A stretch of 64,000 nt of DNA from positions 21,262-85,261 of the IMG/VR virus record IMGVR_UViG_3300044697_000009; one strand, written 5' to 3'. Below are positions 40,651 through 56,163 of the stretch, in pieces. The notes beneath the pieces are model-generated. The model ran no database searches. It was not told the DNA's origin and saw only the letters and a list, made by a program, of their open reading frames with translations. A program made the translations under genes and the position numbers. The DNA is from a virus. Position 1 is the stretch's first letter; each line of letters starts with the position of its first letter.

Positions 40651-40668
40651 ACGATGAGGTCGTTACTG

Positions 40669-40866: not shown

Positions 40867-40973
40867 TAATTAGTACATCCAATTGCATGGTTTCTTTATT
40901 TAATCTTTTTTGGATTTAAAGTAGGAAGAAAATGTAAAATGAGATACTTTGAATATCAAGTTAGGAATCGAAA

Positions 40974-42044: not shown

Positions 42045-42216
42045 AAATGAAAATCGTTGAATCCTTGAAACCAATCTGTGTAATCTGTGGCGAAAAAAAC
42101 CTAGAGTTGTATTACAATGACACAGAAGTCCGGTGTTTAAAATGTATTCCAACAGGGCATAATGTCGAAACTAGAAATGAAACGTTTGAAGTCAAGAAAC
42201 CTGAGGCGTTACACTA

Positions 42217-42498
42217 ATGTGGAAAGTTGGCGATAAAATCAAATGTATTTTATATGATGGCGATTCTATCCAACCTTGGATAACTATAGGAAAGACCTAT
42301 GAAATACTCGAAGTCATAAAAAATTATCATTACGATAATGAACATAAAGATAAATATAATCAACAATATAGAATAATGAATGACCAAGGTGGAAGTTGGT
42401 GGATACAACCGCATTGTTTTAAACTAGTATTTAAAACTACGGGCCCAGAGAAATCTGAAGTCGAAATCCTGGATAGAATACAAGAGAATTTTAAATGA
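42217..42498 (+). CDS. Family B paralog (B1)
   Basis: MWKVGDKIKC...SEVEILDRIQENFK. Confidence 0.7.
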   Translation: MWKVGDKIKCILYDGDSIQPWITIGKTYEILEVIKNYHYDNEHKDKYNQQYRIMNDQGGSWWIQPHCFKLVFKTTGPEKSEVEILDRIQENFK

Positions 42499-42713
42499 AA
42501 CCATTAGATGAAACTACAGTAAAATTCCTAACGCCCGGAGTGAAATTAAAATGTATCGTTAAGGGGGAAAAATATTCTCTACAAACAAATAAAACATACA
42601 CATTTAACAACATATCTGGAATAATTAACGATATAACAGTAATTTGTGTTATGGAAGGAAATAAAAAATTAGGCCCATATTTTGCTTATAGATTTACATT
42701 GGATTTAGAATGA
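42495..42713 (+). CDS. Family A paralog (A7)
   Basis: MKPLDETTVKFLTPGVKLKC...RFTLDLE. Confidence 0.7.
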   Translation: MKPLDETTVKFLTPGVKLKCIVKGEKYSLQTNKTYTFNNISGIINDITVICVMEGNKKLGPYFAYRFTLDLE

Positions 42714-42913
42714 CTGATATTGAATACAAACTTTTAACTCCAGGTATGAAAATAAAACGTATTAAGATTTCAACGGCGGTTTATAATATAAAAATAGGGA
42801 GTATATCCACAGTTGAGAAAACATTTGAACTTATTGATAGAAAATTTATTCAAGTTAAAGAATGCGATCAGTTTTGGTATTTTCATGAAGATTTTACATT
42901 GGAGATTGATTAA
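42710..42913 (+). CDS. Family A paralog (A8)
   Basis: EYKLLTPGMKIK...DFTLEID. Confidence 0.7.
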   Translation: MTDIEYKLLTPGMKIKRIKISTAVYNIKIGSISTVEKTFELIDRKFIQVKECDQFWYFHEDFTLEID

Positions 42914-43079
42914 TGTACCACATCTATGACAATGGTAAACGAATCACAATCACGCCCGTGTCATATAATTTCGTCTTGACAAATCTATTCCCAACTGCCA
43001 AAATAGACACTATGACGCTATCAAGTCTAAAACCAGGGGAAGAATACAATTATCATCAATATAAATTCGTGAGACAAGT

Positions 43080-43364
43080 ATGAAAATTAAAGCAAAGCTC
43101 ATGGACCAAAGTATTATTCTAGAAAACAATGGATTTGAATGGATAGTAACAGAAAGTAATGTACTTGACACACCTAAAAACACTACGTTTAAAACGTTAG
43201 TTGAGTTTCAATTCCATCACCCTTGGTATTCATTAGAAGAAATCGGAATAGAAGAATATTACGTAGGATGTATTCATGACTTAAAAATACGAGAAATCTT
43301 TATAACTCGTGAAGAATATTGTACTAAATGTAATTATACAAGAACTTTAAAACCTGGAGAATGA
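43080..43364 (+). CDS. Hypothetical protein with a C-terminal Cys/His cluster
   Basis: CIH...CTKC. Confidence 0.55.
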   Translation: MKIKAKLMDQSIILENNGFEWIVTESNVLDTPKNTTFKTLVEFQFHHPWYSLEEIGIEEYYVGCIHDLKIREIFITREEYCTKCNYTRTLKPGE

Positions 43365-43365
43365 A

Positions 43366-44754
43366 ATGAAACGAAGTCTTAAATCACTTCAAGGTATGTT
43401 TCCAATCGTAGCTCAAGTCTCTCCTTATCCAGGATATAAACGTCCTGGAGAGAATTTCTTTCATTATATGCCTTATAACTTTGAAGTATCTGAAATCATT
43501 ATTACTAAAATCCAATATCAAGAAAATAATAATATCATGACCTTAAATTATATTCCATTATCTACACCAGATTCGTTCTTTGAACGAACAATTCATATTG
43601 ATGATGAATTCATAATTGAAGTCCTAACGGGCAAGAAACGTAAGGACATCATGGCTAAGTATTATACTTATCTTAATGAAAATCTTTCCCGGCTTAACTA
43701 TCTCCAGTTCAGAATTGGAAGTGATCCTGAATTCTTTGTTGAAGATTCAAAAGGTGAAATTATTCCTAGTTTTAAATTTCTCGGTAGTAAACAACAACCT
43801 AGTCATACATGGGGACAAATTCAAGTCGGAAGTCTTATTGAAGCTACAAATCAAAAAATGTATTGGGATGGCTTCCAGGCCGAATTTGAAACTCTTGCTT
43901 CGACTTGTTTTGGGTGGTTAGTAGATAGTATTTGGTATGGTTTGAAAGGATTATACGAAGAAGCTAAGAAATTTAACCCTGAAGCTAAAATTTCAGCTAA
44001 AACTCTTGTTGAAATTCCTATGAAAGAATTTGAAGCAACAGATCCGAAGTTCCTCGAATTTGGTTGTATGCCAAGTAAAAATGCTTACGGACTTAATGCT
44101 CCATTACTTAATGGAACGCAGACTAGACTTAGATCTACAGGTGGACATATTCACTTCGGTATTGGAAAAATGCCTGAGTATAAATATAGAGAAGTAGTTA
44201 AGACTCTTGACGCAATTCTTGGAGTTGCTTGTGTCGCATTGTTTCAAGGTCATGATCATCCTGAAAGACGAATGATGTACGGACTTCCTGGTGAATATAG
44301 AACACCTCAACACGGTCTTGAATATCGAGTACTTAGTAATGCTTGGATGTTTCATCCATTGATATCTAATCTTGTATTAGACTTATCTCGACAATCATTT
44401 AGATTCGGTGCCGCTGGACTTCGTAAACAATGGAAAACTTCAGAAGAAGAAACTATTGCTTGTATCAAGAATTGTGACGTTAAACTTGCTCAAGAAATCC
44501 TAAGTCGAAACAAAGACCTTTTCTTAAAACTTCTTGGTAGTTGTTATACACAATACATGACTAATAAAGAAGTCTTGACATTGTTATATAACATCTTCTA
44601 TAATGGAATGGATACTGCGATTAAGAATCCAAAGGATATCGTAGGTAATTGGTGTCTTGAAGGTGAAGGATTGTGGCGTGGGCATTCAAATGGAACTGGA
44701 AAACAAGTAAATACTGGTGTTCAAATCTTGATTACCGGCGATAAAGCCGCATAA
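43366..44754 (+). CDS. phiEco32-like COOH-NH2 ligase type 2
   Basis: IGSDPEFF, DGFQAEF, FGCMPS.NAY, RSTGGHIHFG, YGLPGEYR, GLEYRVLSN.W. Confidence 0.85.
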   Translation: MKRSLKSLQGMFPIVAQVSPYPGYKRPGENFFHYMPYNFEVSEIIITKIQYQENNNIMTLNYIPLSTPDSFFERTIHIDDEFIIEVLTGKKRKDIMAKYYTYLNENLSRLNYLQFRIGSDPEFFVEDSKGEIIPSFKFLGSKQQPSHTWGQIQVGSLIEATNQKMYWDGFQAEFETLASTCFGWLVDSIWYGLKGLYEEAKKFNPEAKISAKTLVEIPMKEFEATDPKFLEFGCMPSKNAYGLNAPLLNGTQTRLRSTGGHIHFGIGKMPEYKYREVVKTLDAILGVACVALFQGHDHPERRMMYGLPGEYRTPQHGLEYRVLSNAWMFHPLISNLVLDLSRQSFRFGAAGLRKQWKTSEEETIACIKNCDVKLAQEILSRNKDLFLKLLGSCYTQYMTNKEVLTLLYNIFYNGMDTAIKNPKDIVGNWCLEGEGLWRGHSNGTGKQVNTGVQILITGDKAA

Positions 44755-44763
44755 GGATAAGAT

Positions 44764-45051
44764 ATGATTTTTGATGCAACTAAACCCGAACCTGATTCTA
44801 AACCAAAAGTCGTTGAACTAGCCGAAAATGCTGGTATTAAAGACGATATGTTAGAAACTGTTCATGAATTAATGAAAATGTATAGCGGGAAGACTCCAAA
44901 GGATTTCTCTGTAGAAGAATTCTATTACATGTTTGAAGCAGGAATGCATAAAGCTGGAGTTAAGAACAACTTTAGACTCAAGTCTTTAATGAAACTATGC
45001 CATGCATATCTATATGGATATTCACTTGGCCGAGTAATTACAAAGGATTAA
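44764..45051 (+). CDS. Hypothetical protein
   Basis: AAGGA SD, 95 aa. Confidence 0.6.
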   Translation: MIFDATKPEPDSKPKVVELAENAGIKDDMLETVHELMKMYSGKTPKDFSVEEFYYMFEAGMHKAGVKNNFRLKSLMKLCHAYLYGYSLGRVITKD

Positions 45052-45053
45052 AT

Positions 45054-45293
45054 ATGTGGAAAGTTTTTATTGAATTCGTTGGTGAGAATGACTTAACGTT
45101 TATTCCCGGGAATTATCTTTTCAAGACTCGCAGCCATGCCGCAATGGGTACTGATAATACACGAGGATTTCCATTATTGTCATCGGCAATTCAATACACA
45201 TTGAGTGAAGACTTCGTTGAGTACCTAGATTCAAAACATCCTATGAAGGAAATTAAATCTCTTTGTATTAAATTTGTTGATATCGGAGACTAA
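45054..45293 (+). CDS. Hypothetical protein
   Basis: AAGGA SD before ATG 45054. Confidence 0.55.
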   Translation: MWKVFIEFVGENDLTFIPGNYLFKTRSHAAMGTDNTRGFPLLSSAIQYTLSEDFVEYLDSKHPMKEIKSLCIKFVDIGD

Positions 45294-45445
45294 TATGTAT
45301 TCTGTAGTTAAACATACTCCCGAAAAACTCATCGTTGTCGAGGATAAAATCGAGACTCGTGAAGAAGCCGAATATGCAATGGCCGAAGCTATTATAGAAG
45401 ATAATCAGTATTTTTATGAAATCGTGACTAATGGAGACGTAAAAA

Positions 45446-45664
45446 ATGCGTGAATTTTTCGCTGTAATTGGATTTATTTCATTGGCACTTCTGGGAGCTT
45501 GGGGGATGAGTTCATGTGAACGCAAATACTTTCCGGAAAAAACACTTCAGCAACGTGTAAAAGAAGCTGAAGACGAGTGCCGGGAATTAGGTGCTACTGG
45601 GTATTCATTTCAAACTGGTTGTATTTTTTCAATTCCTAAGAAATCTTCGGGAGATAAGAAATGA
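45446..45664 (+). CDS. Small membrane/lipoprotein
   Basis: Hydrophobic N-terminus ending in MSSC. Confidence 0.55.
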   Translation: MREFFAVIGFISLALLGAWGMSSCERKYFPEKTLQQRVKEAEDECRELGATGYSFQTGCIFSIPKKSSGDKK

Positions 45665-46170
45665 CATACAAAGAAGCTAAAGAAATTCTTAAGACAGCTA
45701 AAAATAAAAACATTGGAAAACCTTTAGGTGAAGGTTATTATCTAATGATGGATAAACAATTCCTTGTAGTTAAAAAAGGATTATTAGAAGCATTGCGAAT
45801 CAATTCAAAAAATGAGTTTACTTTAGGATTGATTAAACCTACTCGTTCTGTATTAAACATCGTGAATCAATTCCTTCCATATAAACTTAAAATCAAATCA
45901 GGTCTTGTTTATATCGGAAATATGGAATATTGGAAAGGAATGAGGCTTGATTCAAACGGTGAAGTAATGATAGACCAAGCTTGGGATGAAGATTCAGAAT
46001 ACACCATGACATGTTTCAGATGTGAAACTAGGTATTCAAATACTCACTGTAGTAATTGTGTATCCGATTATATTGAAGAACTTGAAACAGATGCTGAAAC
46101 TATAGAACCAGAAGGAGATCCTGACGACTACGACGATGATTATAACCAACCTATTGACGATTGGAGTTAA
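45661..46170 (+). CDS. Hypothetical protein with a CxxC pair and acidic tail
   Basis: CFRC...CSNC followed by a D/E-rich end. Confidence 0.6.
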   Translation: MTYKEAKEILKTAKNKNIGKPLGEGYYLMMDKQFLVVKKGLLEALRINSKNEFTLGLIKPTRSVLNIVNQFLPYKLKIKSGLVYIGNMEYWKGMRLDSNGEVMIDQAWDEDSEYTMTCFRCETRYSNTHCSNCVSDYIEELETDAETIEPEGDPDDYDDDYNQPIDDWS

Positions 46171-46442
46171 GACGTATGGTTATTCAAACTAAGAAACTAG
46201 ATATGAAAGAATACAAAGAAAAATTAATAGAACAACAAGGATTTTTGTGTCCTTGGACATCTGAATACATCGAACCAAGTAACGTTGAAATCTTGTATCT
46301 CAACGGTATGGACTTTGCTATTTCACATCACGGATTAAATCAACTTCGGGATGACCCTAAATGGGGAAAAGTTTATATCAACAACAAAATAGTTCATAGT
46401 ATTGATATTTCAGGTGGAAGATTCATAAGGGATATGGGATGA
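46161..46442 (+). CDS. Hypothetical protein
   Basis: Packed ORF in the operon; start codon uncertain. Confidence 0.5.
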   Translation: MELRRMVIQTKKLDMKEYKEKLIEQQGFLCPWTSEYIEPSNVEILYLNGMDFAISHHGLNQLRDDPKWGKVYINNKIVHSIDISGGRFIRDMG

Positions 46443-46642
46443 TTTACGAAGTCTTAGGATATAATACGAATCATTTAGAAAAATCACCATGCTGTATCAT
46501 TAAGTCTGAAAGTTTTGAATTATGCGATCATATTTTCCAGACATTAGGTGTGTTTTTCGCAGTGAATCGTTATAATAGTTTTAAACTTGTCCTAAAATGT
46601 GTTGACAATGGACAAATAATTAAAAATGGAGAGAAAAAATGA
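46439..46642 (+). CDS. Hypothetical protein
   Basis: ATGA-coupled ORF. Confidence 0.5.
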   Translation: MIYEVLGYNTNHLEKSPCCIIKSESFELCDHIFQTLGVFFAVNRYNSFKLVLKCVDNGQIIKNGEKK

Positions 46643-47499
46643 CTAAACGTAAACCCAAAGTCATTGATTCGATTCAAAACGAACTCAAGATGTTATTTAC
46701 AGAAGATATTCCTGATATTGCATTAAAAGAACCAGTCAAAGGTAGTGAATTTATCCGTAAAGGTTTTGTTGAATGTATCGATAACAAAGGCATTGAACAT
46801 TTATTAAATAAACACAAAATCTATGTCCTTAATGAAATCCATGTTTCTCAGACTAAACTTGAAGTATGTTGCGAAGACGGCAAGATGCATTTCTTAGATA
46901 CTAAGTTCTTCAAAGGTATTGATTATGGTCCTTTCATTGAAGGTGATTCTGTGTCATGTGCGGGATTCGCGGATTCTGAACAACTAGAAGGTAAAATTAT
47001 TAATCCAGCTGAACTAATCCATCTTAATGGAATCGTCAAATCCGGTGATGAAACTCATGCCGTTGTATCATGGAGTAGTTATGTATTTAAAATTCCTAAT
47101 CAACAACTTCGTTTAAGACAAAGATATCCCAAACTTCCTGATAATCCGTTTAAAGAAAACGATGTAGTCCGATGTATAATTGGATACAAATCTGAAATCT
47201 TTCCTAATTGGAAATACACAGTAGTCGCTAAAGATAGAGAACGTGTATTAATAAAAGAACGATCTGATAGATGGTATCCTCATACACATTTTATTTTAGA
47301 TAATAAATCCAAGACAAAACAAATTCGTCAAAATCGTGACTTAAAACAAAGTATTCGGGAGTATTTAAATCTTCATAGTAATGAAATCGTATCTCCCCAC
47401 GATCTTATTGAATATCTTAAGACTTTGAAACATGACGTTGATGTCAATGTAGTTATTAATGAAATTCGCGATTTTGCGAGAACTAGCTTTCACTGGTGA
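46639..47499 (+). CDS. Protein with tandem SH3-like segments related to families A/B
   Basis: FIRKGFVECID...KIY, PFIEGDSVSC, PFKENDVVRCI...KY...HFILD. Confidence 0.6.
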   Translation: MTKRKPKVIDSIQNELKMLFTEDIPDIALKEPVKGSEFIRKGFVECIDNKGIEHLLNKHKIYVLNEIHVSQTKLEVCCEDGKMHFLDTKFFKGIDYGPFIEGDSVSCAGFADSEQLEGKIINPAELIHLNGIVKSGDETHAVVSWSSYVFKIPNQQLRLRQRYPKLPDNPFKENDVVRCIIGYKSEIFPNWKYTVVAKDRERVLIKERSDRWYPHTHFILDNKSKTKQIRQNRDLKQSIREYLNLHSNEIVSPHDLIEYLKTLKHDVDVNVVINEIRDFARTSFHW

Positions 47500-47715
47500 G
47501 GTTTTGATTGGAAGATTTATGCACATTCCCACAAACAATAAAAGAAGTCGCAACAAGCGAGTATTCCGTAAAACTCGTACAACACAAACACTTGTATGAG
47601 ATCCGTTACGATGATATGCCGAGAGGATTACCTTTCAGTAATCTGACTATTGCGATAGATGTTTTTGAAAAACTCTTGACTAAACCATATAAAATAAACA
47701 ATAATTAGGACTGAT

Positions 47716-47925
47716 ATGTTGAAACTCGTTAAAGTCAAAACTATGTTTGGATTTGAAATGAACTTTAGGCATCATCAGTTACTAGAGATTCGTCAAGACA
47801 AGAAATACAAAAACGTCTGTCATATCAGGACTTCAATACGAGACAAAGAAGGTAAGCCTATGTGGTTTACTGTAGAACACTCGGCGATTGATGTAATCAA
47901 CCGTTATAACGAAACGAAAGGTTAA
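47716..47925 (+). CDS. Hypothetical protein
   Basis: AGGA SD, 69 aa. Confidence 0.55.
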   Translation: MLKLVKVKTMFGFEMNFRHHQLLEIRQDKKYKNVCHIRTSIRDKEGKPMWFTVEHSAIDVINRYNETKG

Positions 47926-47927
47926 GT

Positions 47928-49265
47928 ATGTACAGTCTTAAGACAAGATCTATTACTAAAAAAATAGACAAATCAACGTACTCTAAATACATGAGTGTTA
48001 GGAAACTTCTTAAGGAATATAATAAAACTCATACTAATAATATCGATGAACTAGAGTATGCCCAAAATGAAATGAAGCAGTTTATTAGGAAGTTTCGTAA
48101 AGAATTAAAAGAATGTAAAACTGAATACAAATTCTCGTATGTCGTTAAAAACAGGTCATGGAAATATTTATTTGGCGATAGTATTAGCCATTCATTTGAG
48201 ATCAATACGTTCCATGATTCAAGTATTTTAAAGAACTTTAGACATGAAATGGTTCATAAAAACCTTTTCTTTAGCCAAGAAAAACCTAAAATCGAATGGT
48301 TCAAAGAAATCAACCAAAAAATCCAGGATAATTATCGTAAAAAGAAAATTCAGAAACGAAGTCTCAGGGTGCAATCTAGAACTGGAGTAAATAAAAACGG
48401 CGATCAAGTACAGTATAAAGTCTGTGGTGCCGTGATGTATCAACGTCCAAAACAGTTAAAGAGAGGTGAATCTCCTAAGACTCATGTATCATATGATAAG
48501 GAAATGATTATGAAGTTAATGAAATCTAGAGACAAACAAGTCATATTTGAAGAAAAGAAACCAAAGACTAAAGACAATTACATTGGTATTGAAATCGAAT
48601 TCTTCTGCGATCTCGATCGTGATGATTTAAGTTACCAACTTGCCAACGAAGGTCTTGGTAAATATGTAGCACTTCATACAGATGGCAGTATCCAACAAGA
48701 CGCTGGAACATTTGATCATGAAATCTGTATCCTTGCAAAAGAAAAAGAAATCTTTGGTGTTGTTAAAGACGTATGTAAAGTTCTTCAAGACGCAAATGCG
48801 AGAGTCAACAAATCTTGCGGGCTTCATGTACATTTGGATATGAGAAATCGTGATCACAAAACGGCGTTCTATAACCTAGCTTCAAGTCAAAATGCTTTAT
48901 TCGCAATGAATCCATTCTCAAGACAAGCTGGAACATATTGTAAACGAATTGATACAAAAGACTTCGCAAAAGCTGCGTGTCAAGACCGGTACTTCGGTAT
49001 TAATGCCCAGGCTTATGAAAAACATAAAACAATTGAAATCCGTATTCATTCTGGAACAATTATGGAAGACAAGATTAATAACTGGGTTAAGATTCTTATG
49101 GCGATTGTTAATAAACCCGAGAAAGTTGAAAAATCAGCTTCAACACTATTGGAATTTGTGACTCAATTCGATATCGATAAAAAACTCACGAAATACATCT
49201 ATGAAAGAGTTTCTAAGTTCGCTGGCGAAGATAAACGTGGCGTTGAAGAACGAGGTGTCGCTTAA
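47928..49265 (+). CDS. Amidoligase_2-family COOH-NH2 ligase
   Basis: IGIEIEF, DGSI, HEI, VNKSCGLHVHLD, RY.GIN, TIEIRIHSGT. Confidence 0.85.
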   Translation: MYSLKTRSITKKIDKSTYSKYMSVRKLLKEYNKTHTNNIDELEYAQNEMKQFIRKFRKELKECKTEYKFSYVVKNRSWKYLFGDSISHSFEINTFHDSSILKNFRHEMVHKNLFFSQEKPKIEWFKEINQKIQDNYRKKKIQKRSLRVQSRTGVNKNGDQVQYKVCGAVMYQRPKQLKRGESPKTHVSYDKEMIMKLMKSRDKQVIFEEKKPKTKDNYIGIEIEFFCDLDRDDLSYQLANEGLGKYVALHTDGSIQQDAGTFDHEICILAKEKEIFGVVKDVCKVLQDANARVNKSCGLHVHLDMRNRDHKTAFYNLASSQNALFAMNPFSRQAGTYCKRIDTKDFAKAACQDRYFGINAQAYEKHKTIEIRIHSGTIMEDKINNWVKILMAIVNKPEKVEKSASTLLEFVTQFDIDKKLTKYIYERVSKFAGEDKRGVEERGVA

Positions 49266-49505
49266 ATGTTTAAAGCTGGCGATAAAGTTATGGTAATAAT
49301 CCCCATAGGTCATTTACAACAGAATGATATTAGAACTCTTAGAATCCATCACTATACAAAAAAACTTTATATACCTCACAATGAAGGTACTAAAGAAGGA
49401 TGGTGGGTTGAAGGAAATGAAAAATGTTTAAAATTACTACAAAAGCCCGCACCTAAAACAGAAATAGAAGCTTTAGATCGTTTTCAACAGAATTTTAAAT
49501 ACTAA
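49266..49505 (+). CDS. Family B paralog (B2)
   Basis: MFKAGDKV...TEIEALDRFQQNFKY. Confidence 0.7.
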   Translation: MFKAGDKVMVIIPIGHLQQNDIRTLRIHHYTKKLYIPHNEGTKEGWWVEGNEKCLKLLQKPAPKTEIEALDRFQQNFKY

Positions 49506-49514
49506 GGAGATTAT

Positions 49515-50600
49515 ATGTGTAAAATTTGTATCATCCCTGGAATTACCGACAAGACTACAGAACTCGTTTGGAAATTCATTACAAAAATGTCAAAAGAAAT
49601 GTCTGGATATTCTGAAACCGATGGATTTGGATATGCAGCTTTTGACGGCCAAGGTAATTTGTTTGGTGAACGTTGGCTTAATCCTAAAGAAGCATTCTCA
49701 AACCGTGATGAAAAAAATATCCTCGTACAAGAATTGATTCATAAATACAAAGGATTCTTGAGAGGAAAGCTTCCTATCTACAATAAATTCGGCGAAGGTA
49801 ATATGAATAGTCTTAGGACTGCTATACTTCACGCAAGGAATGCAACAACCGAGAAAGGACTCATCAATGTCCATCCTTTTGTTCATGGAGACTCGGCATT
49901 GATCCATAACGGAATAATCGCAAATCATGAACAACTTCACAAAAAATACTCTACATGTGATAGTGAAGTCATATTGACTGAATACAATAAATTTAACGTA
50001 ACTAACAATATTAAGAACATCAATAACGTTGCATCAAAACTTGATGGATATTATGCATGTAGTGTATTATCTAAAACTGATGACAATAAGTACATAGTCG
50101 ATGTATTTAAAGAAGATTCGGCAAGACTTAAAGGTTATTTCATCAAGGAATTTAATACTGTTGTATTCGCTACTCCCGGTGCAAATGATACCTACGGTCC
50201 GATTCAATCCGTATGTCGAGACTTAAACCTAACTATTGTGGACGAATTTGATCTTGAAGACTCAAGTCTCCTTCGAATGGATGCAATGACCGGCGAAGTC
50301 TTAGATATGTGCAAGTTCAATTCTAAATTCAAGAAAGGTAAACGAGAAGTCACTGTTATTGATAAATGGACTCAAGAATTCGGTAACCATAACCGTGGCG
50401 GCGGCAGTCAACGAAGTTTCTCTGAAAAACAAAAAGATGAAGAACTTGAACGTCAGTTACTTGAGAATCTTTCATTTATGAACTACGAAGACGATACAAA
50501 AGAATTCACGGTATTGAATCAAGAAACGAAGTTCAATGAAGCCGGAGACTGGGAACAATCTGAGAATGGTGTCTGGAGAAAGAAAACGGCGGCACAATGA
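49515..50600 (+). CDS. Class II (Ntn) glutamine amidotransferase
   Basis: Cys2 (MCKI), DGFG, HARNAT, NVHPF, HNGII, DSE. Confidence 0.9.
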   Translation: MCKICIIPGITDKTTELVWKFITKMSKEMSGYSETDGFGYAAFDGQGNLFGERWLNPKEAFSNRDEKNILVQELIHKYKGFLRGKLPIYNKFGEGNMNSLRTAILHARNATTEKGLINVHPFVHGDSALIHNGIIANHEQLHKKYSTCDSEVILTEYNKFNVTNNIKNINNVASKLDGYYACSVLSKTDDNKYIVDVFKEDSARLKGYFIKEFNTVVFATPGANDTYGPIQSVCRDLNLTIVDEFDLEDSSLLRMDAMTGEVLDMCKFNSKFKKGKREVTVIDKWTQEFGNHNRGGGSQRSFSEKQKDEELERQLLENLSFMNYEDDTKEFTVLNQETKFNEAGDWEQSENGVWRKKTAAQ

Positions 50601-50839
50601 CTAGAAAGTTCAAACCTGGAGACAAAGTTCTAAGAACTATTGATTCTGGAGCCTATGGAATCACAGTCCCAGGGCAAATCTATACAGTGAAAAGAACGAA
50701 AGACAACGGACATATAGCATTAGTCGAATGCCCAGATGGATTTGGATATTCAATGAAATCGTTTACTTTAGTAAGTACTGCTCCATTAACGGAATTTGAA
50801 TGGTTAGATAGAGTACAGGAGAATTTTAAAGATGTATGA
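50597..50839 (+). CDS. Family B paralog (B3)
   Basis: KFKPGDKV...TEFEWLDRVQENFKDV. Confidence 0.7.
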   Translation: MTRKFKPGDKVLRTIDSGAYGITVPGQIYTVKRTKDNGHIALVECPDGFGYSMKSFTLVSTAPLTEFEWLDRVQENFKDV

Positions 50840-51062
50840 CACTGATTTTGATTATACTGTATCAGATAAAAAAACATATCATGTCTATGCTAGTTGCAAT
50901 AATATCGTAACAAGACAGTGTTTTGGATTAACTCTAAAGTTTACAGATCATGAAGGAAGTATCATAAAGCTCGACTATGATCCAGATATGTTTAAAGATG
51001 TGACTAAACAAGCAGTTGAAAGATTATTGTATACATATTATAATTGGGGAATTTCCCTTTAA
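50832..51062 (+). CDS. Hypothetical protein
   Basis: Packed ORF, 76 aa. Confidence 0.5.
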   Translation: MYDTDFDYTVSDKKTYHVYASCNNIVTRQCFGLTLKFTDHEGSIIKLDYDPDMFKDVTKQAVERLLYTYYNWGISL

Positions 51063-51071
51063 GGAGTCAAA

Positions 51072-51818
51072 ATGAAAATCATGCCTTACAAACGTTTTAG
51101 TAAATCTTGTAGGACTTTACGCCAAGCATTCGGCATGCGAAGTCTTCGGGTTGTTCATCCAGATTTAACACCTCGTGGTAGAGAAACTGTTATCAACTGG
51201 GGTTCAGCTAAATCAAAACCTATGGCTGTGTGCAAATTCTTAAACCCTCCTGATAAAGTAGCTGTGGCGGTTAATAAACTTGAGACATTCAAGATTCTTA
51301 AAGATGCTGGTGTCAATGTTCCTGAATTCTCAAAATCAGTAGAAGACGCTAAGACTTGGATTGAAAAAGGATACAAAGTCCTGGTTCGAAGTCTTTTAAG
51401 AAGTCATAGTGGTCAAGGAATAAAAGTAATTGATACAGTTGAAGACCTACCGTTGTATGCACCTTTGTATGTTCGTTACTATAGAAAAAAACATGAATTC
51501 CGGGTCCATGTCGTAAACGGTGAAGTCGTTGATTATATCGAGAAAAAAGCTAGACAAAATAAACCAATGAATTTTAATCCTTATATCAGAAGCTACGATA
51601 ACGGATGGGTTTTTTGTCGAGACGGCATTACTCATATCCAAGAAGTCAAAGACGAAGCGATAAAAGCTGTCAAAGCCTTAGGTCTTGATTTCGGTGCAGT
51701 TGATGTAATCTTTACTAAGAAAGATAAACCAGTAGTTCTTGAAGTCAATACGGCTCCAGCTATGAGTGGAACTACTATCAATGCATACGTCTCAGCCTTT
51801 GAACAGTACATGTACTAA
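51072..51818 (+). CDS. ATP-grasp peptide ligase (RimK/phiEco32-like)
   Basis: INWG, NKLET, HSGQGI, EFRVHV, LGLDFGAVDV, LEVNTAP. Confidence 0.9.
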   Translation: MKIMPYKRFSKSCRTLRQAFGMRSLRVVHPDLTPRGRETVINWGSAKSKPMAVCKFLNPPDKVAVAVNKLETFKILKDAGVNVPEFSKSVEDAKTWIEKGYKVLVRSLLRSHSGQGIKVIDTVEDLPLYAPLYVRYYRKKHEFRVHVVNGEVVDYIEKKARQNKPMNFNPYIRSYDNGWVFCRDGITHIQEVKDEAIKAVKALGLDFGAVDVIFTKKDKPVVLEVNTAPAMSGTTINAYVSAFEQYMY

Positions 51819-51827
51819 GGAGATTAT

Positions 51828-52358
51828 GTGTTTAAAATCGGACAACGAGTAAAAATAACTAATACAAACGACATCATAGCCGGCGATTATCATTTTGTAA
51901 ATAATGAAGTCTTAACTATTAACGCGACAAGTACTCATGATGGTCGTGTATATTATTGGCTTGGTAGACAAGGTGAAAATCGAATAGCTATCTACGAAAC
52001 TGGTATTCGTAAATTATTCAAGAAACGTCCTAAAGACATTGTCAATTCCGAATGGACTTTAAAAGATGAAATCCAAGTCCTTGATAGAATAAGAAAGAAC
52101 TTCCAATCTGATGATGATTACTATGACTATGATGATCCTGTTGAAAGAATTAGACCTATTACACCGGAAAATTTGACTGAACCAATGGATGTTAGAGTTA
52201 CTACTGCTCAAACTCTTCAAGGAATGCAGCAAAACCTACAACAACAAATGGGATTGATACAGCCTAATATTCAAGGTGTAGTACTTCAAAATCAAATCCA
52301 AGATTTTCAACAGCAATGGACAGGAGATAATGTTACACAGAATCCTTTTAGGAGATAA
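51828..52358 (+). CDS. Family B paralog (B4) with a Q-rich extension
   Basis: FKIGQRVKI...DEIQVLDRIRKNFQ followed by an acidic/Q-rich tail. Confidence 0.65.
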   Translation: MFKIGQRVKITNTNDIIAGDYHFVNNEVLTINATSTHDGRVYYWLGRQGENRIAIYETGIRKLFKKRPKDIVNSEWTLKDEIQVLDRIRKNFQSDDDYYDYDDPVERIRPITPENLTEPMDVRVTTAQTLQGMQQNLQQQMGLIQPNIQGVVLQNQIQDFQQQWTGDNVTQNPFRR

Positions 52359-52359
52359 A

Positions 52360-52584
52360 ATGGAAACTGAAGAAAGAAAACTTGAGAAAAAAGAGATAGT
52401 AACACTAATGCTTAAGAAAGTCGAAGAAATAGTCCATGCAGGTATTGATTCAACTGATACAGAAGGATATAGTCCATTAGATCTTATTGTATTGACAATT
52501 AACCATGTTATGATCCTGGCTGAGACACAACGTAAAGCCGAAGCTGAATTTGATTCAGATGATGATTCAGGAACCTTACAATGA
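52360..52584 (+). CDS. Acidic hypothetical protein
   Basis: AGGAG SD. Confidence 0.6.
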   Translation: METEERKLEKKEIVTLMLKKVEEIVHAGIDSTDTEGYSPLDLIVLTINHVMILAETQRKAEAEFDSDDDSGTLQ

Positions 52585-52829
52585 ACTTACGACATAAATT
52601 CATTAGACATAATAGGAATATGGACATATGTTATTTAGTTAACAAAGTATTTGATACAGGAAAGAAGCTTAAACTAAGTCTCATCGCATTTAATATGGGG
52701 TATACAGAAACATATCGCTTGAACATACAGTTCAAAGCTGTTATATTCAAAGAAGAATTAAAGAACTGGCAACTATGCCTAGATAGTAATGCTAAATGCT
52801 TAAGATATTCTGAATGGAAACAAATATGA
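52581..52829 (+). CDS. Hypothetical protein
   Basis: ATGA-coupled ORF. Confidence 0.55.
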   Translation: MNLRHKFIRHNRNMDICYLVNKVFDTGKKLKLSLIAFNMGYTETYRLNIQFKAVIFKEELKNWQLCLDSNAKCLRYSEWKQI

Positions 52830-53074
52830 CTCGTTTAAGATTTAAGAAAACACACCAAGGATACGCAACAAATGAGTTATTCATTAAGAAAGACTTGTAT
52901 TATGGCTACATAGCTATAGATAAAAAATACTATTACTGGAATGTATATAACTCTGAGAATAGAAAGATTTATTGGGGACGAACACTTACACTAAAAGCCG
53001 CTAAAACATGTCTTAAAGACGCTTTTAGAGCGTTAGGAGCTACGTTTTATGACGAAGTCAGACAAAAAGATTAA
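52826..53074 (+). CDS. Hypothetical protein
   Basis: ATGA-coupled ORF. Confidence 0.55.
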   Translation: MTRLRFKKTHQGYATNELFIKKDLYYGYIAIDKKYYYWNVYNSENRKIYWGRTLTLKAAKTCLKDAFRALGATFYDEVRQKD

Positions 53075-53357
53075 GAAACTAAAACTCAAAGAGATCCTGT
53101 ATTGTATATACTGCGGAAAGAAGTCAGCATTCAAAGTCTGTAACGAATGTTATTTAATCGAATTATAAGGAGAATATATGGAAATCCTGCAACTCAATAC
53201 CCCAATTAAAGTCTTGATTAAAGATAAAGAACCTGCCGAGGCTATTGCTATCTGGGATTACGGTCGTGACGAAGACATTCAATTCCTTTGTTTCAAAGAA
53301 AAAGATGGACAAAGTATATTTGTTAACGGAACTGATATACGTCGAAGAAAATAATAC

Positions 53358-53386
53358 TTGACTTTTTATGAAAAATGTGATATAGT
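53358..53386 (+). promoter_or_regulatory. Sigma70-type promoter
   Basis: TTGACT-17-TATAGT with TG extension, near-identical to the promoters at 12738 and 59365. Confidence 0.8.
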
Positions 53387-53501
53387 ATTACAGTTACATT
53401 ACGACAGCCGATAAGGCTGTATAGCAATGTGAAATTAACTACTAAGAAATAACAACACAGCACGATTAACAAAATTAACACTAAGTAGCGAATTGTGAGA
53501 G

Positions 53502-53825
53502 GTGTATTTAATGCTTAAATCAAAAAAAGTAATTCCTTCAGAAACTACTGATAAGATTAAAGAATATTTAGTACATAACTTAGAATCTATTACTAAAGAC
53601 TTCAATAAGTTTGATGAATTATATAACGCAATAAAAGAAATTACACCTAAGGAACTTCAGAACGACTTGCAACAACAAAGAACCCAAGAACTCTTGTATT
53701 TCATGTGTCATAAAGTATCTGATGCAATAGGTGTCGATACCGAATCAGTTATTAATGTAGTTGAATCTAGACTTCCAGAAATAATGGAGATGTATAACAA
53801 ACAAAAAGGAGAAACAAATGCTTAA
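53502..53825 (+). CDS. Hypothetical protein
   Basis: Helical ORF downstream of the promoter; start may be a few codons later. Confidence 0.6.
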   Translation: MYLMLKSKKVIPSETTDKIKEYLVHNLESITKDFNKFDELYNAIKEITPKELQNDLQQQRTQELLYFMCHKVSDAIGVDTESVINVVESRLPEIMEMYNKQKGETNA

Positions 53826-54039
53826 ATTCCTCATCGGTAATCTTCTCATCACGGGCGTAACTGCTGGATTGCTTGGATTTGTCCTTAGTATCTACAATGT
53901 AGGTGTTTTGGGTGGATTCTTGACGTCTGTTGTTGCAGTACTTGGTATTACGTACTTCTATACCATTCCACAATGGACTTTGATGAAGTATTTGAAATCA
54001 ACTTCCTGTTCTATGAACAGTAGTAGTAAGGTTTCATAA
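53818..54039 (+). CDS. Two-TM membrane protein
   Basis: Two hydrophobic segments; AGGAG SD. Confidence 0.6.
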   Translation: MLKFLIGNLLITGVTAGLLGFVLSIYNVGVLGGFLTSVVAVLGITYFYTIPQWTLMKYLKSTSCSMNSSSKVS

Positions 54040-54270
54040 TGTTAGTAATTCTAGTACTTGGCATATTTCTTGCAACCATAGTTAATTTCATGTATTATGA
54101 ATACAGAGTGGTAAAAGGTTTGAAATCTGAACCTAGTTACATCACATCGAAATATACTAACTATTTGTTATACAAGAAATATTCTAAGAAGACATCAGCT
54201 CGATCTGTCATGCTTAATTCCGAGGAATAGCATATAGCATAGGTGAAAGTCCTGTCATGTCGAATTAATA

Positions 54271-54350
54271 GAGGCTGTAGTTTAATGGTAAAACAATCAG
54301 GCGGAGAGTAATCCCTGAATAAGTTCTACGTTCGAGTCGTAGCGGCCTCA
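54271..54350 (+). tRNA. tRNA-like element with an aberrant extended anticodon arm (identity undetermined)
   Basis: Acceptor GAGGCTG/CGGCCTC, D arm GTTT-AATGGTA-AAAC and T arm CTACG-TTCGAGT-CGTAG are canonical. The anticodon arm TCAGG-12 nt-CCTGA is not. Confidence 0.65.
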
Positions 54351-54379
54351 CTCCAAAAGGTGTATATGGATAATAAATT

Positions 54380-54850
54380 ATGGAATTGACAATTGATGAA
54401 CATAAAGTTATCATAGATGATGAAGATTATGAGAAAATATCAAAATTTAAATGGTATATTTTAATCACTGTAGATGGAAATAAATATGTTTCAAAAACAG
54501 CTAAATCGGACATAAAATTTATACATCATTTGGTTTTTGGTAAACCTGAAAATGGTAAATGTATTGACCACATAAATGGAAATGGTTTGGATAATAGAAA
54601 ATCCAATTTAAGAATATGCACAAATCAAATGAATCAAGGAAATCAAAAGATAAAGAAAAGCAATACATCTGGTTACAAAGGTGTCGGTTGGGTTAAGGAT
54701 AGAAAAAAATGGAGAGCATACATTTGCTTTGGAAGAAAATATAAACATTTAGGTTCCTTCGAATCGAAGGAAGAAGCGGCCAGAAAGTATGATGAATATG
54801 CAAAACTCGTTTTTGGTGAATTTGCCAGAACAAACTTTAAAGCAGATTAA
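54380..54850 (+). mobile_element. Free-standing HNH-AP2 homing endonuclease
   Basis: IDHINGNGLDNRKSNLR (HNH) followed by SGYKGV...WRAYI...LGSF...AARKYD...GEFARTNF (AP2). Confidence 0.9.
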
Positions 54851-55436
54851 AGATTTAAGATATAACGGAAAAATTATTTTTCCTGAAGAAAAGTTGATGT
54901 TTAAGGCATTGGAATTAACACCAATTGAAAAGGTTAAAGTTGTAATATTGGCCCAGGATTGTTATCATGGAGAAAGACAAGCAAATGGGTTAGCTTTCTC
55001 GGTAAATAGAGGTGAGAAAATACCACCGTCACTACAGAACATTTTCCTTGAACTTTGTACAGATCTTGATATTCCAGTACCTAGTCATGGAGATTTAACT
55101 AAGTGGGCGGAACAAGGTGTATTACTTCTGAATTCTGTATTAACTGTTGAGAAAGGTAAACCTGGTAGTCATTTTGGTATTGGCTGGGAGGATTATACAA
55201 ATAATATTATTAAAAAAGTGAATCAAAAACAAACGCCTGTAGTATTTATGTTGTGGGGAAAGAAAGCACAAGAAAAATCATATCTTATAGATAATAGTAT
55301 CCATCTTGTACTAACTGCAAGTCATCCTTCACCTCTGTCCGCTTATCGTGGATTTTTAGGATGCGGTTGTTTTAGTGAATGTAACAAGTTCTTAGAATCT
55401 AGATCTATTTCAGGAATTGACTGGAGACTTGAATAA
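54789..55436 (+). CDS. ung: Uracil-DNA glycosylase, family 1
   Basis: VKVVILAQDCYH (variant of GQDPYH), GLAFSV, PPSL.NI, WA.QGVLLLN, HPSPLS. Confidence 0.9.
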   Translation: MMNMQNSFLVNLPEQTLKQIKDLRYNGKIIFPEEKLMFKALELTPIEKVKVVILAQDCYHGERQANGLAFSVNRGEKIPPSLQNIFLELCTDLDIPVPSHGDLTKWAEQGVLLLNSVLTVEKGKPGSHFGIGWEDYTNNIIKKVNQKQTPVVFMLWGKKAQEKSYLIDNSIHLVLTASHPSPLSAYRGFLGCGCFSECNKFLESRSISGIDWRLE

Positions 55437-55870
55437 TGCGTGTCGGTGATGTAGTAACTCCATACAAGAAAATGTATGATAAGTTTAAACCTAGACGTTT
55501 AGAATATGGAAAGAAATATATTGTAACTGAATTTGCTAGAACTGAAATCGAAGATAGGAAATACGGACTTCAAGGAGTTCGACTTAGATATTTAAATGGA
55601 CAACCAGTAGGTGAATATTATGTAAATAATAAAAACGTAGGATATCCATATCCCATGACAATGTTCTATATAGTGGAACAACGAGGTAAACCAGTATCTG
55701 AAATCGAGTACTTAGACCGTATACAAAAGAACTTTAAAGATGATGAAGTTAAACCTAGGTATTCAGTAGCTCAAATAAGAAATCTTATGGATACAATAAA
55801 TAATACGAATGTTGATGAAGTTATTAATATTGATGAAGTTATTGAAGAAATCATGGGTACGGAAGAATAA
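55436..55870 (+). CDS. Family B paralog (B5) with an acidic extension
   Basis: MRVGDVV...SEIEYLDRIQKNFKDD. Confidence 0.65.
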   Translation: MRVGDVVTPYKKMYDKFKPRRLEYGKKYIVTEFARTEIEDRKYGLQGVRLRYLNGQPVGEYYVNNKNVGYPYPMTMFYIVEQRGKPVSEIEYLDRIQKNFKDDEVKPRYSVAQIRNLMDTINNTNVDEVINIDEVIEEIMGTEE

Positions 55871-56163
55871 TGAGTCTTGATAGACTGAGTTACGAAATTG
55901 AAGAATATCTTAAATTCAGTTGTAAAGATCGAGGTATAGAAGTAGAACTATACCATAGTCCTAATACTCCGAATTATATCATGTATTTTCGAAAATCATC
56001 TTGGAGTAAATCTGTAAAATTTGAAATTCCATTACATATAATGTCTAATATAATACTGAGCGGCTATTATTCTAAATCATTATATGAAGTCCACAAATTA
56101 ATAGAATATAGATTGTCTTTAGATGGTTGTATTGACGCTATTAAAACGGCATTAAATAAATGA
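55870..56163 (+). CDS. Hypothetical protein
   Basis: TAATG-coupled ORF. Confidence 0.5.
   Translation: MSLDRLSYEIEEYLKFSCKDRGIEVELYHSPNTPNYIMYFRKSSWSKSVKFEIPLHIMSNIILSGYYSKSLYEVHKLIEYRLSLDGCIDAIKTALNK

What the first reader, a model, noticed from the sequence alone, without database searches (positions are those of the whole stretch)
42217..55870. Family B: five SH3-like proteins sharing a tag E(I/V/F)ExLDR(I/V/F)QxNFK, interleaved with peptide-ligase genes
Seen: 42217 (SEVEILDRIQENFK), 49266 (TEIEALDRFQQNFK), 50597 (TEFEWLDRVQENFK), 51828 (DEIQVLDRIRKNFQ) and 55436 (SEIEYLDRIQKNFK) all start with an (F/W)KxG(D/Q)xV-like barrel start. Their cores diverge, but they keep the same ~14-aa amphipathic helix. 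B2, B3 and B4 sit directly downstream of the amidoligase, the GATase and the ATP-grasp gene respectively. Inference: the helix may be a docking or leader motif that makes these proteins substrates or target-selecting adaptors of the ligase system, like leader peptides in ATP-grasp pathways.
Basis: partly seen in the sequence, partly recalled or inferred. Interest (0 to 1): 0.78.

Follow-up and report, generated by a model that had tools for sequence, protein, structure and literature searches.

The report
Phage barrel proteins sharing a helix
Five small barrel-shaped proteins of an uncultured phage share a very conserved end helix on a flexible tether, most likely a common docking handle, and their genes sit among enzymes whose product nobody knows, so the helix could be used to fish for that system's partner.

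Summary
Exactly five ORFs in the window, and in the complete 85,261-bp phage genome, carry E(I/V/F)(E/Q)xLDR(I/V/F)(Q/R)xNF(K/Q); shuffled sequence gave none. Synonymous codons vary under the motif, so it is a peptide signal.

An exhaustive profile search found 71 further hits in metagenomes: 68 small tagged proteins and 3 untagged multi-barrel proteins. The tag carries 3.1 bits per position against 1.3 for the barrel. AlphaFold models a confident SH3-like barrel, a Lys/Pro linker and a less confident helix.

Linkage to the ligases is only partly supported. All 4 metagenome relatives keep tagged genes beside the amidotransferase, the amidoligase or ORF 50832 homologs. But 0 of 86 other cassette loci carry the tag, and the helix-less sister family A sits among unrelated genes.

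Small barrels with lineage-specific tails are enriched around this cassette: 2.83% against 0.09% of gene pairs. Several such tails are ribosome-binding-site junctions. This scan noted the same pattern earlier in a Rhizobium-type phage (e1-3433680).

Best reading: a tethered docking helix for one unidentified partner. No binding or modification is shown.

The parts
42217..42498 (+). B1: 93-aa SH3-like barrel, Lys/Pro linker and C-terminal tag helix (tag DNA 42457-42495). It lies within the family A block; its stop overlaps the start of the next gene.
   Evidence: (AF2 with 69 sequences: pLDDT 87, barrel residues 1-72, helix 81-91)
49266..49505 (+). B2: 79 aa, tag at 49461-49499. It starts directly after the stop codon of the Amidoligase_2 gene.
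50597..50839 (+). B3: 80 aa, tag at 50792-50830. It overlaps the stop of the class-II GATase gene by 4 nt (ATGA). Relatives L088 and L089 have a tagged gene in the same place.
51828..52358 (+). B4: 176 aa, GTG start 9 nt after the ATP-grasp stop. The tag is internal (52068-52106) and is followed by an acidic Asp/Tyr patch and a Gln-rich extension. It is the weakest tag match.
   Evidence: tag HMM E = 6e-4
55436..55870 (+). B5: 144 aa with an N-terminal extension. The tag is internal (55700-55738) and is followed by an acidic 44-residue tail. It follows the phrog_12143 (unknown function) gene, not a ligase.
43366..44754 (+). phiEco32-type COOH-NH2 ligase (PF14395, phrog_3815). At 462 aa it has N- and C-terminal extensions that at most 1 of the 59 loci it hits shares.
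47928..49265 (+). Amidoligase_2 (PF12224, phrog_2443), 445 aa. Its N-terminal ~195 residues are not matched in any fetched locus, including the tag-bearing relative L090.
49515..50600 (+). Class-II (Ntn, Met-Cys start) glutamine amidotransferase-like protein, 361 aa
50832..51062 (+). 76-aa protein of no known family, lying between B3 and the ATP-grasp gene. Its homologs lie next to or between tagged genes in L087 and L088 and are absent from the 86 tag-free cassette loci. Candidate partner, untested.
51072..51818 (+). RimK-like ATP-grasp ligase (PF08443, phrog_2599), 248 aa, 36-45% identical to homologs in IMG/VR loci

Best explanation
The five B proteins are paralogs of a phage-only family. 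Each is a small SH3-like beta-barrel, followed by a Lys/Pro-rich flexible linker and a 13-15-residue acidic amphipathic helix that normally ends the protein. I read the helix as a tethered docking handle. All paralogs would use it to bind the same single partner, while their diverged barrel loops give each copy a different second contact or cargo. The partner is not identified. The gene positions make a component of the amidoligase cassette, or the small ORF 50832 protein, the first candidates; a conserved host protein is equally possible. Shown: the family, the peptide-level conservation, the fold, and the conserved gene positions in relatives. Inferred: that the helix docks on a partner, and what that partner is.
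For: 1. The signal is a peptide, not DNA. Arg is AGA or CGT, Leu is CTG, TTA or CTT, and Asp, Asn and Phe codons vary. Two tags are internal. Only 1 of 5 tags holds an SD-like 4-mer.
2. An exhaustive HMM search of 1.84 billion representatives gave 76 hits at E <= 1e-3: 5 are the window's own and 71 are others. Of the 71, 68 are small tagged proteins and 3 are untagged multi-barrel proteins.
3. In the 69-member alignment the tag carries 3.11 bits per position against 1.32 for the barrel. L85 and N91 are 99% conserved and F92 97%. In 64 of 69 members the protein ends 1-4 residues after NF.
4. AF2 with 69 sequences gives mean pLDDT 87. The barrel (residues 1-72) is above 90 and the linker plus helix is about 65-70. 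So the helix is predicted but not confidently packed on the barrel. The linker is 32% Lys and 15% Pro.
5. Polar as well as hydrophobic helix positions are conserved.
6. Context is conserved. All 4 metagenome loci with tagged genes hold a cassette gene or an ORF 50832 homolog. A tagged gene follows the GATase in L088 and L089 (ATGA overlap in L089), and two tagged genes lie upstream of the amidoligase in L090.
7. In the window, B genes directly follow 3 of the 4 enzyme genes, p = 6e-4 to 3.4e-3 under random placement.
Against: No binding is shown.

The cassette exists without the tag: 0 of 80 IMG/VR loci and 0 of 6 reference-phage loci carry it.

The four relatives belong to the same lineage, so conserved gene order may be inheritance rather than function.

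Family A, the homologous barrel without the helix (hhalign probability 96%, E = 2.4e-9), is interleaved with MoxR-like ATPase and VWA-type genes. Wedging between genes is therefore a habit of these mini-genes.

Conserved polar positions could be explained by helix-stabilising i/i+4 salt bridges and a C-cap Asn (my inference). The hydrophobic moment is 0.46, above the shuffled mean of 0.30 but below the shuffled 95th percentile of 0.57.

The ligase N-terminal extensions, which might have served as receptors, are not conserved even in L090.
Confidence: 0.45

Rival explanations
1. The helix is a structural or self-association element of this barrel subfamily. It packs on its own barrel or pairs copies into dimers or oligomers, with no external partner. 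The position next to ligase genes comes from tandem duplication and inherited gene order.
For: The family profile's best solved-structure sequence matches are eL21 chains (E = 0.004-0.07). There an SH3-like barrel is followed at the same distance by a similar helix, 'EFLNRVKTN' against 'EWLDRVQEN', so barrel plus helix may be one inherited unit. Intrahelical salt-bridge spacing could explain the conserved polar residues (inference). Family A shows that interleaving needs no ligase link. No tag was found on an unrelated or longer protein; 2 of 2 longer hits are untagged multi-barrel proteins.
Against: The helix and linker have lower pLDDT (about 65-70) than the barrel (above 90), and the linker is Lys/Pro-rich, which suggests a tether rather than a packed element. 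The helix is far better conserved than the barrel it would pack on (3.1 against 1.3 bits). Family A barrels do without it.
Confidence: 0.3
2. The B proteins are substrates or protein-type modifiers of the cassette enzymes. The tag presents the C-terminus, or a Glu or Lys of the tag, to the RimK-like ATP-grasp or the COOH-NH2 ligases, which add amino acids or join it to a target.
For: Gene neighbourhood in the window and its relatives. The last residue is Glu or Asp in 27 of 69 family members. From established knowledge, RimK extends the Glu-rich C-terminus of ribosomal protein S6 (abstracts of PMC10375531 and PMC7343187, listed). Peptide-level acidic tails on small barrels recur near the cassette in phiM6, L066 and L057.
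Against: The last residue is not conserved: B1 ends in K, B2 in Y and B3 in V, and B4 and B5 run on for 70 and 44 residues. The invariant residues are L, N and F, not an acceptor Glu or Lys. 0 of 86 other cassette loci have the tag.
Confidence: 0.12
3. The motif is a by-product of a DNA or RNA signal, a ribosome-binding site plus start codon of the next gene or a recombination junction, rather than a selected peptide.
For: This is true of several look-alike tails elsewhere. In CVT22, LENE is almost always xTG GAG AAT GAA plus stop plus ATG: 17 of 22 have an SD-like 4-mer and 18 of 22 an ATG at the junction. CW02 LLEENV scores 8 of 9 and 9 of 9. RKAQEK has nearly invariant DNA. The stops of B1 and B3 do overlap the next start.
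Against: Codons vary at synonymous sites in all five tags. Only 1 of 5 has an SD-like 4-mer. B4 and B5 tags are internal, with no gene start nearby. B2 has its own GGAG after the stop. The peptide is conserved in 68 other small proteins from separate 50%-identity clusters.
Confidence: 0.03

Closest known systems
phiEco32-type phage amidoligase cassette (Pfam PF14395 COOH-NH2_lig, PF12224 Amidoligase_2, class-II GATase, RimK-like ATP-grasp; Iyer, Abhiman, Burroughs and Aravind 2009, Mol Biosyst)
   Same: The four enzyme genes between which B2-B4 sit are members of this cassette. The ATP-grasp has homologs in 315 GenBank phage records and 461 IMG/VR stretches.
   Different: The B proteins are not part of the conserved cassette: 0 of 86 other cassette loci carry the tag. 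The 2009 paper was not held. As cited in PMC10580990 (passages read), it proposes cell-wall modification, not a protein substrate. Whether it mentions small barrel proteins I could not check.
Tail-sharing small proteins of Rhizobium-type phages (phiM6; IMG/VR loci L066 and L057; earlier scan note e1-3433680)
   Same: These are multi-copy small proteins with hKxGDxV-type starts, next to or inside the same cassette. They share one lineage-specific C-terminal peptide that is conserved at the peptide level. The family B barrel HMM detects some of them: 3 in phiM6 and 2 in L066.
   Different: Their tail is an 11-14-residue acidic, probably unstructured peptide at the extreme C-terminus (DQEPxEDEExL, SPEQNGDxDDDI). 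It is not a helix and shows no sequence similarity to the B tag.
Family A of the same phage (8 mini-proteins ending RFTLDLE)
   Same: It is the homologous SH3-like barrel (hhalign probability 96.2%, E = 2.4e-9). Its genes are wedged between other genes in the same way.
   Different: Family A ends at the last barrel strand: RFTL aligns with CFKL of family B. It lacks the linker and helix and sits among non-ligase genes.
Ribosomal protein eL21 (L21e), SH3-like barrel followed by a helix
   Same: It is the best sequence match among solved structures (E = 0.004, 21 bits). The alignment runs through the barrel into the tag. eL21 chains appear among the structural matches at Z = 5.7.
   Different: The Pfam L21e model finds nothing in this genome at E <= 10, and L21e is not among the families listed for the 69 members. 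The eL21 stretch shown is more basic than the acidic B tag. Bacteria lack eL21 (established knowledge).
Leader-peptide helices of ATP-grasp RiPP pathways such as microviridin (recalled, not checked here)
   Same: A short conserved helix serves as the recognition element for a ligase.
   Different: Leaders are N-terminal, precede a short core peptide and are removed. Here the helix is C-terminal on a folded domain, and no precursor-like core is present.

Membership tests
SH3-like small beta-barrel fold (SH3 / KOW / Tudor / PsaE class) | Five- to six-stranded small closed barrel of about 60-70 residues | tested here: met
   The AF2 model has pLDDT above 90 over residues 1-72, with strands 7-10, 27-29, 32-35, 49-54, 60-63 and 68-72. 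VIA-align gives Z = 7.3 for PsaE (rmsd 2.3, 61 aligned), 6.7 for Spt5 KOW and 5.2-6.0 for SH3 domains. Foldseek's best E is 5.6e-3, with PetP, YorP and SH3 domains. Z values under 8 show a common arrangement only.
Ribosomal protein L21e (Pfam PF01157) | Match to the Pfam model above its curated cut-off (27 bits) | tested here: not met
   0 matches in the whole genome at E <= 10. PF01157 is not among the 25 of 34 families listed for the 69 members at E <= 5. There is only a marginal profile-to-PDB match, E = 0.004.
phiEco32-type amidoligase cassette (as a conserved component) | Present in cassette-bearing phages generally | tested here: not met
   The tag regex is absent from 80 of 80 IMG/VR ATP-grasp loci (1.37 Mb) and 6 of 6 reference-phage loci. 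No tagged member was found by tblastn in 50,697 phage records with B5, P0007 or P0008.
phiEco32-type amidoligase cassette (as a lineage-specific accessory) | Conserved gene position inside the cassette in independent relatives | tested here: met
   All 4 tag-bearing metagenome loci hold a cassette gene or an ORF 50832 homolog. A tagged gene follows the GATase in L088 and L089, and two lie upstream of the amidoligase in L090. The loci are short (1.1-3.0 kb) and belong to one lineage.
RimK-type substrates (C-terminal Glu tail extended by an ATP-grasp ligase) | Conserved acidic extreme C-terminus | tested here: not met
   27 of 69 members end in E or D. The others end in V, I, G, Y, F and other residues. 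B1-B3 end in K, Y and V, and B4 and B5 have long extensions.
RimK-type substrates | Mass shift or modification by the enzyme | not testable with these tools
   This needs co-expression and intact-mass MS.
Translational-coupling junction tails (SD plus start codon encoded in the upstream gene's last codons) | DNA more constrained than the peptide requires, with an SD-like 4-mer and ATG at the junction | tested here: not met
   For family B, 1 of 5 tags has an SD-like 4-mer, synonymous sites vary and two tags are internal. The feature is met for CVT22 LENE (17 of 22; 18 of 22) and CW02 (8 of 9; 9 of 9).

The most novel reading that the evidence does not exclude
The small SH3-like barrels with lineage-specific C-terminal peptides are the missing protein partners of the phiEco32-type amidoligase cassette. 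In this reading the tag (here a helix, in Rhizobium-type phages an acidic tail, in L012 a basic-aromatic tail) recruits one of the ligases. The variable barrel selects different host or phage targets. The set would then work like exchangeable substrate adaptors, in the manner of F-box proteins, for a phage-encoded peptide- or glutamyl-ligation system; alternatively the barrels are themselves conjugated as protein tags. That would give a first mechanism for a cassette that has lacked a known product since 2009.
Probability: 0.12. Interest if true: 0.85.

Novelty: new variant of a known kind. Interest (0 to 1): 0.55.

Why it matters
The phiEco32-type amidoligase cassette occurs in hundreds of lytic phages: 315 GenBank records and 461 IMG/VR stretches match its ATP-grasp gene. 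I found no experimental study of its product in the searched library.

A conserved, tethered peptide handle carried by several co-located proteins is an easy experimental entry point. The tag peptide can serve as bait, and the five proteins can be checked for mass shifts.

The wider result is that multi-copy small barrels with lineage-specific tails are about 30 times enriched around this cassette compared with random viral loci. I did not find this in print. It deserves a proper phylogenetically controlled test.

The work also gives a caution. Several conserved C-terminal 'tags' of phage mini-proteins are really the ribosome-binding site and start codon of the next gene, read in the upstream frame.

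Tried and rejected
Complex prediction of the ATP-grasp ligase (36-row alignment A7) with B1 (69-row alignment A6) gave 'no answer': score 0.00 in both runs against a mark of 0.32, and the controls were not run. This is evidence neither for nor against binding. The other three enzymes and ORF 50832 could not be tried because the cap is 1 job.

The first AF2 run with only the 5 window paralogs was poor, at pLDDT 49. It was replaced by the 69-sequence run.

The word-indexed homolog search returned only the 5 window proteins. The exhaustive search was needed.

Other searches that found no family members:
- IMG/VR with A2 and with A4: pattern matches (37 and 56 stretches), none confirmed.
- GTDB genome contigs: no pattern match.
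- tblastn of B5 and P0008 against 50,697 phage records: no match.
- tblastn of P0007: two weak matches (E = 0.04 and 0.7), neither reaching the tag.
- megablast of window 42000-56000 against phages: no match.

Pfam gave no family for the 69 members at E <= 0.01 beyond three single-member hits. PHROGs gave only weak matches of unknown function for B1 and B3. The ESM Atlas gave only unnamed phage clusters and DUFs.

The idea that the ligases' N-terminal extensions are tag receptors was dropped. The extensions are not matched in L090 or in other loci.

The idea that CW02 LLEENV and CVT22 LENE share a peptide function with IQENFK was dropped. The shared E-N is encoded by the GAGAAT of an SD junction in those phages.

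The eL21 lead was tested and membership was not met.

The search among longer proteins found no tag on another domain: 2 hits, both untagged multi-barrel proteins. By the tool's own note this is weak evidence.

Papers:
- Iyer et al. 2009 (DOI and PMC3268129) and the PhiRIO-1 paper (PMC3754069) are not held. I saw nothing of them and know their content only through citing passages and an earlier scan note.
- Text searches for the tag letters and for paralogous small phage proteins with conserved C-termini returned 0 papers.
- Supplementary files were not consulted.

Limits of the control:
- The control loci were drawn with a P-loop codon pattern and are phylogenetically unrelated, whereas the cassette loci come from a few related lineages. 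The 30-fold enrichment may therefore be a lineage trait.
- Only 80 of the 120 control loci fetched were used; all 120 were used.
- L019 and L031 were left out of alignment A7. L019 was dropped for an in-frame stop; L031 was dropped with it without a separate check.

Full report
**What is there.** The window is the right-hand 64 kb of a complete 85,261-bp virus record with direct terminal repeats. On the + strand between 42 and 56 kb lie the four enzymes of the phiEco32-type amidoligase cassette:
- a COOH-NH2 ligase (43366-44754; PF14395, phrog_3815);
- an Amidoligase_2 (47928-49265; PF12224);
- a class-II glutamine amidotransferase-like protein with a Met-Cys start (49515-50600);
- a RimK-like ATP-grasp ligase (51072-51818; phrog_2599, E = 2e-69).

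- The strict motif occurs five times in the six frames of the window, and none of 100 shuffles gave a hit.
- The whole genome has the same five and no more.
- A tag-only HMM built from 69 family members finds the five at E = 2.6e-10 to 6e-4; the next-best segment has E = 3.5.
- Under the tag the codons differ at synonymous sites: Arg is AGA or CGT, Leu is CTG, TTA or CTT, and Asp, Asn, Gln and Phe codons vary. Two tags (B4, B5) are internal, and only one of the five contains an SD-like 4-mer.

The conservation is therefore selected at the peptide level.

**The family.**
- A word-indexed search of 5.8 billion clusters returned only the five window proteins.
- HMMER run over 1.84 billion representatives gave 76 hits at E <= 1e-3, of which 71 were new.
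- Of the 71, 68 are 74-106 aa long, start M(F/W)K(V/I)GDK and end (P)PK(T/N)(E/D)h(E/D)(W/F/Y)LD(R/A/C/N)h(Q/K/R)xNFK(E/D), with or without G-h. The other three are untagged tandem multi-barrel proteins.
- Ten of ten members looked up are metagenome singletons on contigs of 1-12.5 kb, none named beyond 'hypothetical protein'.
- No tagged member was found in 50,697 GenBank phage records, in IMG/VR or in 185,579 species genomes.
- In the 69-member alignment (66 of the 68 small new hits plus B1-B3; B4, B5, two tag-divergent small hits and the three multi-barrel hits left out) the tag averages 3.11 bits per position against 1.32 for the barrel. L85 and N91 are 99% conserved and F92 97%. In 64 of 69 members the protein ends 1-4 residues after NF.

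B4 and B5, with 70 and 44 further residues, are the exceptions.

**Fold.**
- With five sequences AlphaFold failed, at pLDDT 49. With 69 it gave pLDDT 87.
- The model is a six-stranded barrel over residues 1-72 (pLDDT above 90), a linker, and a helix at 81-91 (pLDDT about 65-70).
- Structural searches place the barrel in the SH3 / KOW / Tudor / PsaE class: VIA Z = 7.3 to 5.2, Foldseek best E = 5.6e-3. Many uncharacterised small phage proteins also match. No match covers the helix.
- The linker is 32% Lys and 15% Pro. The helix has a mean net charge of -1.5 and a hydrophobic moment of 0.46, against a shuffled mean of 0.30 and a shuffled 95th percentile of 0.57.

**Relation to family A.** The window's other mini-protein family has 8 members ending RFTLDLE, at 35.9-42.9 kb. 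It aligns with the family B barrel at hhalign probability 96.2%, E = 2.4e-9, and its RFTL falls on B's CFKL. So A's 'tail' is the last barrel strand, and B equals A's barrel plus a linker and helix. Family A genes are wedged among a MoxR-like ATPase, a VWA-type protein and other non-ligase genes. Interleaving is therefore not specific to ligases.

**Linkage to the ligases: evidence for.**
- B2, B3 and B4 directly follow three of the four enzyme genes, with a 0-nt gap, a 4-nt overlap and a 9-nt gap. Random placement gives p = 6e-4 with 74 genes, or 3.4e-3 with 42 local genes.
- All four metagenome contigs that encode tagged proteins (1.1-3.0 kb) are syntenic with this region.
  - L089 has the GATase followed by a tagged gene with an ATGA overlap.
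  - L088 has the GATase, two small ORFs, a tagged gene, a homolog of ORF 50832 and a second tagged gene.
  - L090 has two tagged genes upstream of an Amidoligase_2 homolog (47% identity over residues 195-435) and a GATase.
  - L087 has a tagged gene, a small membrane protein, an ORF 50832 homolog and a second tagged gene.

**Linkage to the ligases: evidence against.**
- None of 80 IMG/VR loci centred on the ATP-grasp gene (1.37 Mb), and none of six reference-phage loci, has the tag. The cassette works without it.
- The four relatives are one lineage.
- B1 and B5 are not next to a ligase.
- The lineage-specific N-terminal extensions of the two ligases are not conserved even in L090.

**A wider pattern, with a caveat.** Reading the cassette regions of other phages, I found multi-copy small proteins with hKxGDxV-type starts that share lineage-specific C-terminal peptides:
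- CW02: P-x-LLEENV, 8-9 copies.
- CVT22: (F)SLENE, 16 copies.
- phiM6: DQEPxEDEExL, 10 copies.
- L066: SPEQNGDxDDDI, 13 copies.
- L057: DPKQQPDEEDDI, 7-8 copies.
- L012 (an 85.5-kb contig): KKxH(L/W)P…, 8 copies.

An unbiased detector scored at least 5 of 8 identical residues in the last 8, with the cross-locus null at 0.093% of pairs.
- In 80 cassette loci cut to 8 kb it found tail-sharing pairs in 149 of 5,270 within-locus gene pairs (2.83%).
- In 80 quasi-random viral loci of equal total length, none with cassette genes, it found 4 of 4,327 (0.092%).
- Loci with a family of three or more numbered 9 of 80 against 0 of 80.

A barrel-only HMM hit 13 of 80 cassette loci against 1 of 120 control loci.

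The caveat is that many of these tails are not peptide signals. In CVT22 the Leu codon before GAG almost always ends in G, making GGAG, and an ATG follows within a few bases. 17 of 22 tails have an SD-like 4-mer and 18 of 22 have an ATG at the junction. CW02 scores 8 of 9 and 9 of 9. RKAQEK tails have nearly invariant DNA. Those tails are the next gene's ribosome-binding site read in the upstream frame, laid over the last barrel strand.

The acidic tails of phiM6, L066 and L057, the L012 tail and the B tag vary freely at synonymous sites and are true peptide motifs.

The control loci are also phylogenetically unrelated to the cassette loci, so the enrichment may be a lineage trait. I re-observed it independently in phiM6.

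**An unexpected lead.** The family profile's best matches among solved-structure sequences are all eukaryotic ribosomal protein eL21 (E = 0.004-0.07). The alignment runs from the barrel into the tag, with 'EFLNRVKTN' and 'EFLERVKSN' against 'EWLDRVQEN'. eL21 chains also appear among the structural matches at Z = 5.7. But the Pfam L21e model finds nothing in the genome at E <= 10, and L21e is not among the families listed for the 69 members. I record this as a resemblance that slightly favours 'barrel plus helix is one old unit', not as membership.

**Mechanism.** I commit to the tethered docking handle at 0.45. The structural or self-association helix comes next at 0.30, ligase substrate or modifier at 0.12, and a DNA-level artefact at 0.03. 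The rest is unassigned. The one complex prediction allowed (ATP-grasp with B1) gave no answer and counts for nothing. I put the chance that the partner is a cassette component at about 0.15-0.2 overall.

**Literature.** I found no paper with the tag letters or describing such tail-sharing families (library limits apply). I found no experimental work on the cassette's product. PMC10580990 (passages read) cites Iyer et al. 2009 for a proposed cell-wall role. The 2009 paper itself and the PhiRIO-1 paper were not held. Supplements were not consulted.

**Verdict.** The feature is real and statistically solid: a new helix-bearing subfamily of a phage SH3-like mini-protein superfamily. Part of the apparent cross-phage support for 'tags' dissolves into ribosome-binding-site junctions.

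Noticed in passing
window 35914-42913: The conserved C-terminal 'RFTLDLE' of family A (8 mini-proteins) aligns with the last beta-strand (CFKL) of the family B barrel (hhalign probability 96%). Families A and B are subfamilies of one SH3-like barrel. All 8 family A stops have an ATG at the junction.
   Followed up: yes
window 50832-51062; L087 575-811; L088 1698-1937: A 76-79-aa protein of no known family sits next to or between tagged genes in the window and in two metagenome relatives. It is absent from 86 tag-free cassette loci. It may be the tag's partner; this is untested.
   Followed up: partly
L012 (IMG/VR contig of 85.5 kb) 2564-15012: A phage of the same size with the same cassette carries about 8 small proteins ending in a basic-aromatic peptide: KK(S/N/H)H(L/W)P followed by W-M-K, W-W-L or xRIFGxK. 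Synonymous codons vary.
   Followed up: partly
L066, L057, L004 (phiM6): These loci hold long acidic C-terminal peptides (SPEQNGDxDDDI, DPKQQPDEEDDI, DQEPxEDEExL) on 7-13 small proteins per locus around the cassette. They are conserved at the peptide level. This is the same phenomenon as earlier scan note e1-3433680.
   Followed up: partly
L005 (CVT22), L001 (CW02), L030, L079: Recurrent protein tails LENE, LLEENV, RKAQEK and FKGN coincide with GGAG-type or AAGGA-type ribosome-binding sites and the ATG of the next gene. In these cases the 'conserved C-terminal motif' is largely a translational-coupling junction.
   Followed up: yes
window 43366-44754 and 47928-49265: Both ligases are about 180-200 aa longer than their CW02 and phiEco32 counterparts. 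The COOH-NH2 ligase N- and C-terminal extensions are matched in at most 1 of 59 loci. The amidoligase N-terminal ~195 residues are matched in none.
   Followed up: partly
window 37441-38088: This ORF has a long Ala/Asn/Tyr-rich low-complexity repeat (AAYAASNATYAANA-like units). The repeat also opens long ORFs in another frame and on the opposite strand.
   Followed up: no
window 54380-54850 and 54789-55436: An HNH endonuclease gene (phrog_99, E = 1e-42) overlaps by 62 nt the start of the ORF that matches phrog_12143 (E = 8e-59, unknown function), just upstream of B5.
   Followed up: no
P0021, P0058, P0065, P0078, P0079 (metagenome proteins): These proteins consist of 2-5 tandem copies of the same barrel (FKVGDKV…FELVKEE units) without the tag. 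The barrel therefore also exists as a repeat module.
   Followed up: no
family B profile against PDB sequences: The best sequence matches among solved structures are eukaryotic ribosomal protein eL21, with the similarity extending into the tag helix (E = 0.004). Pfam L21e membership is not met.
   Followed up: yes
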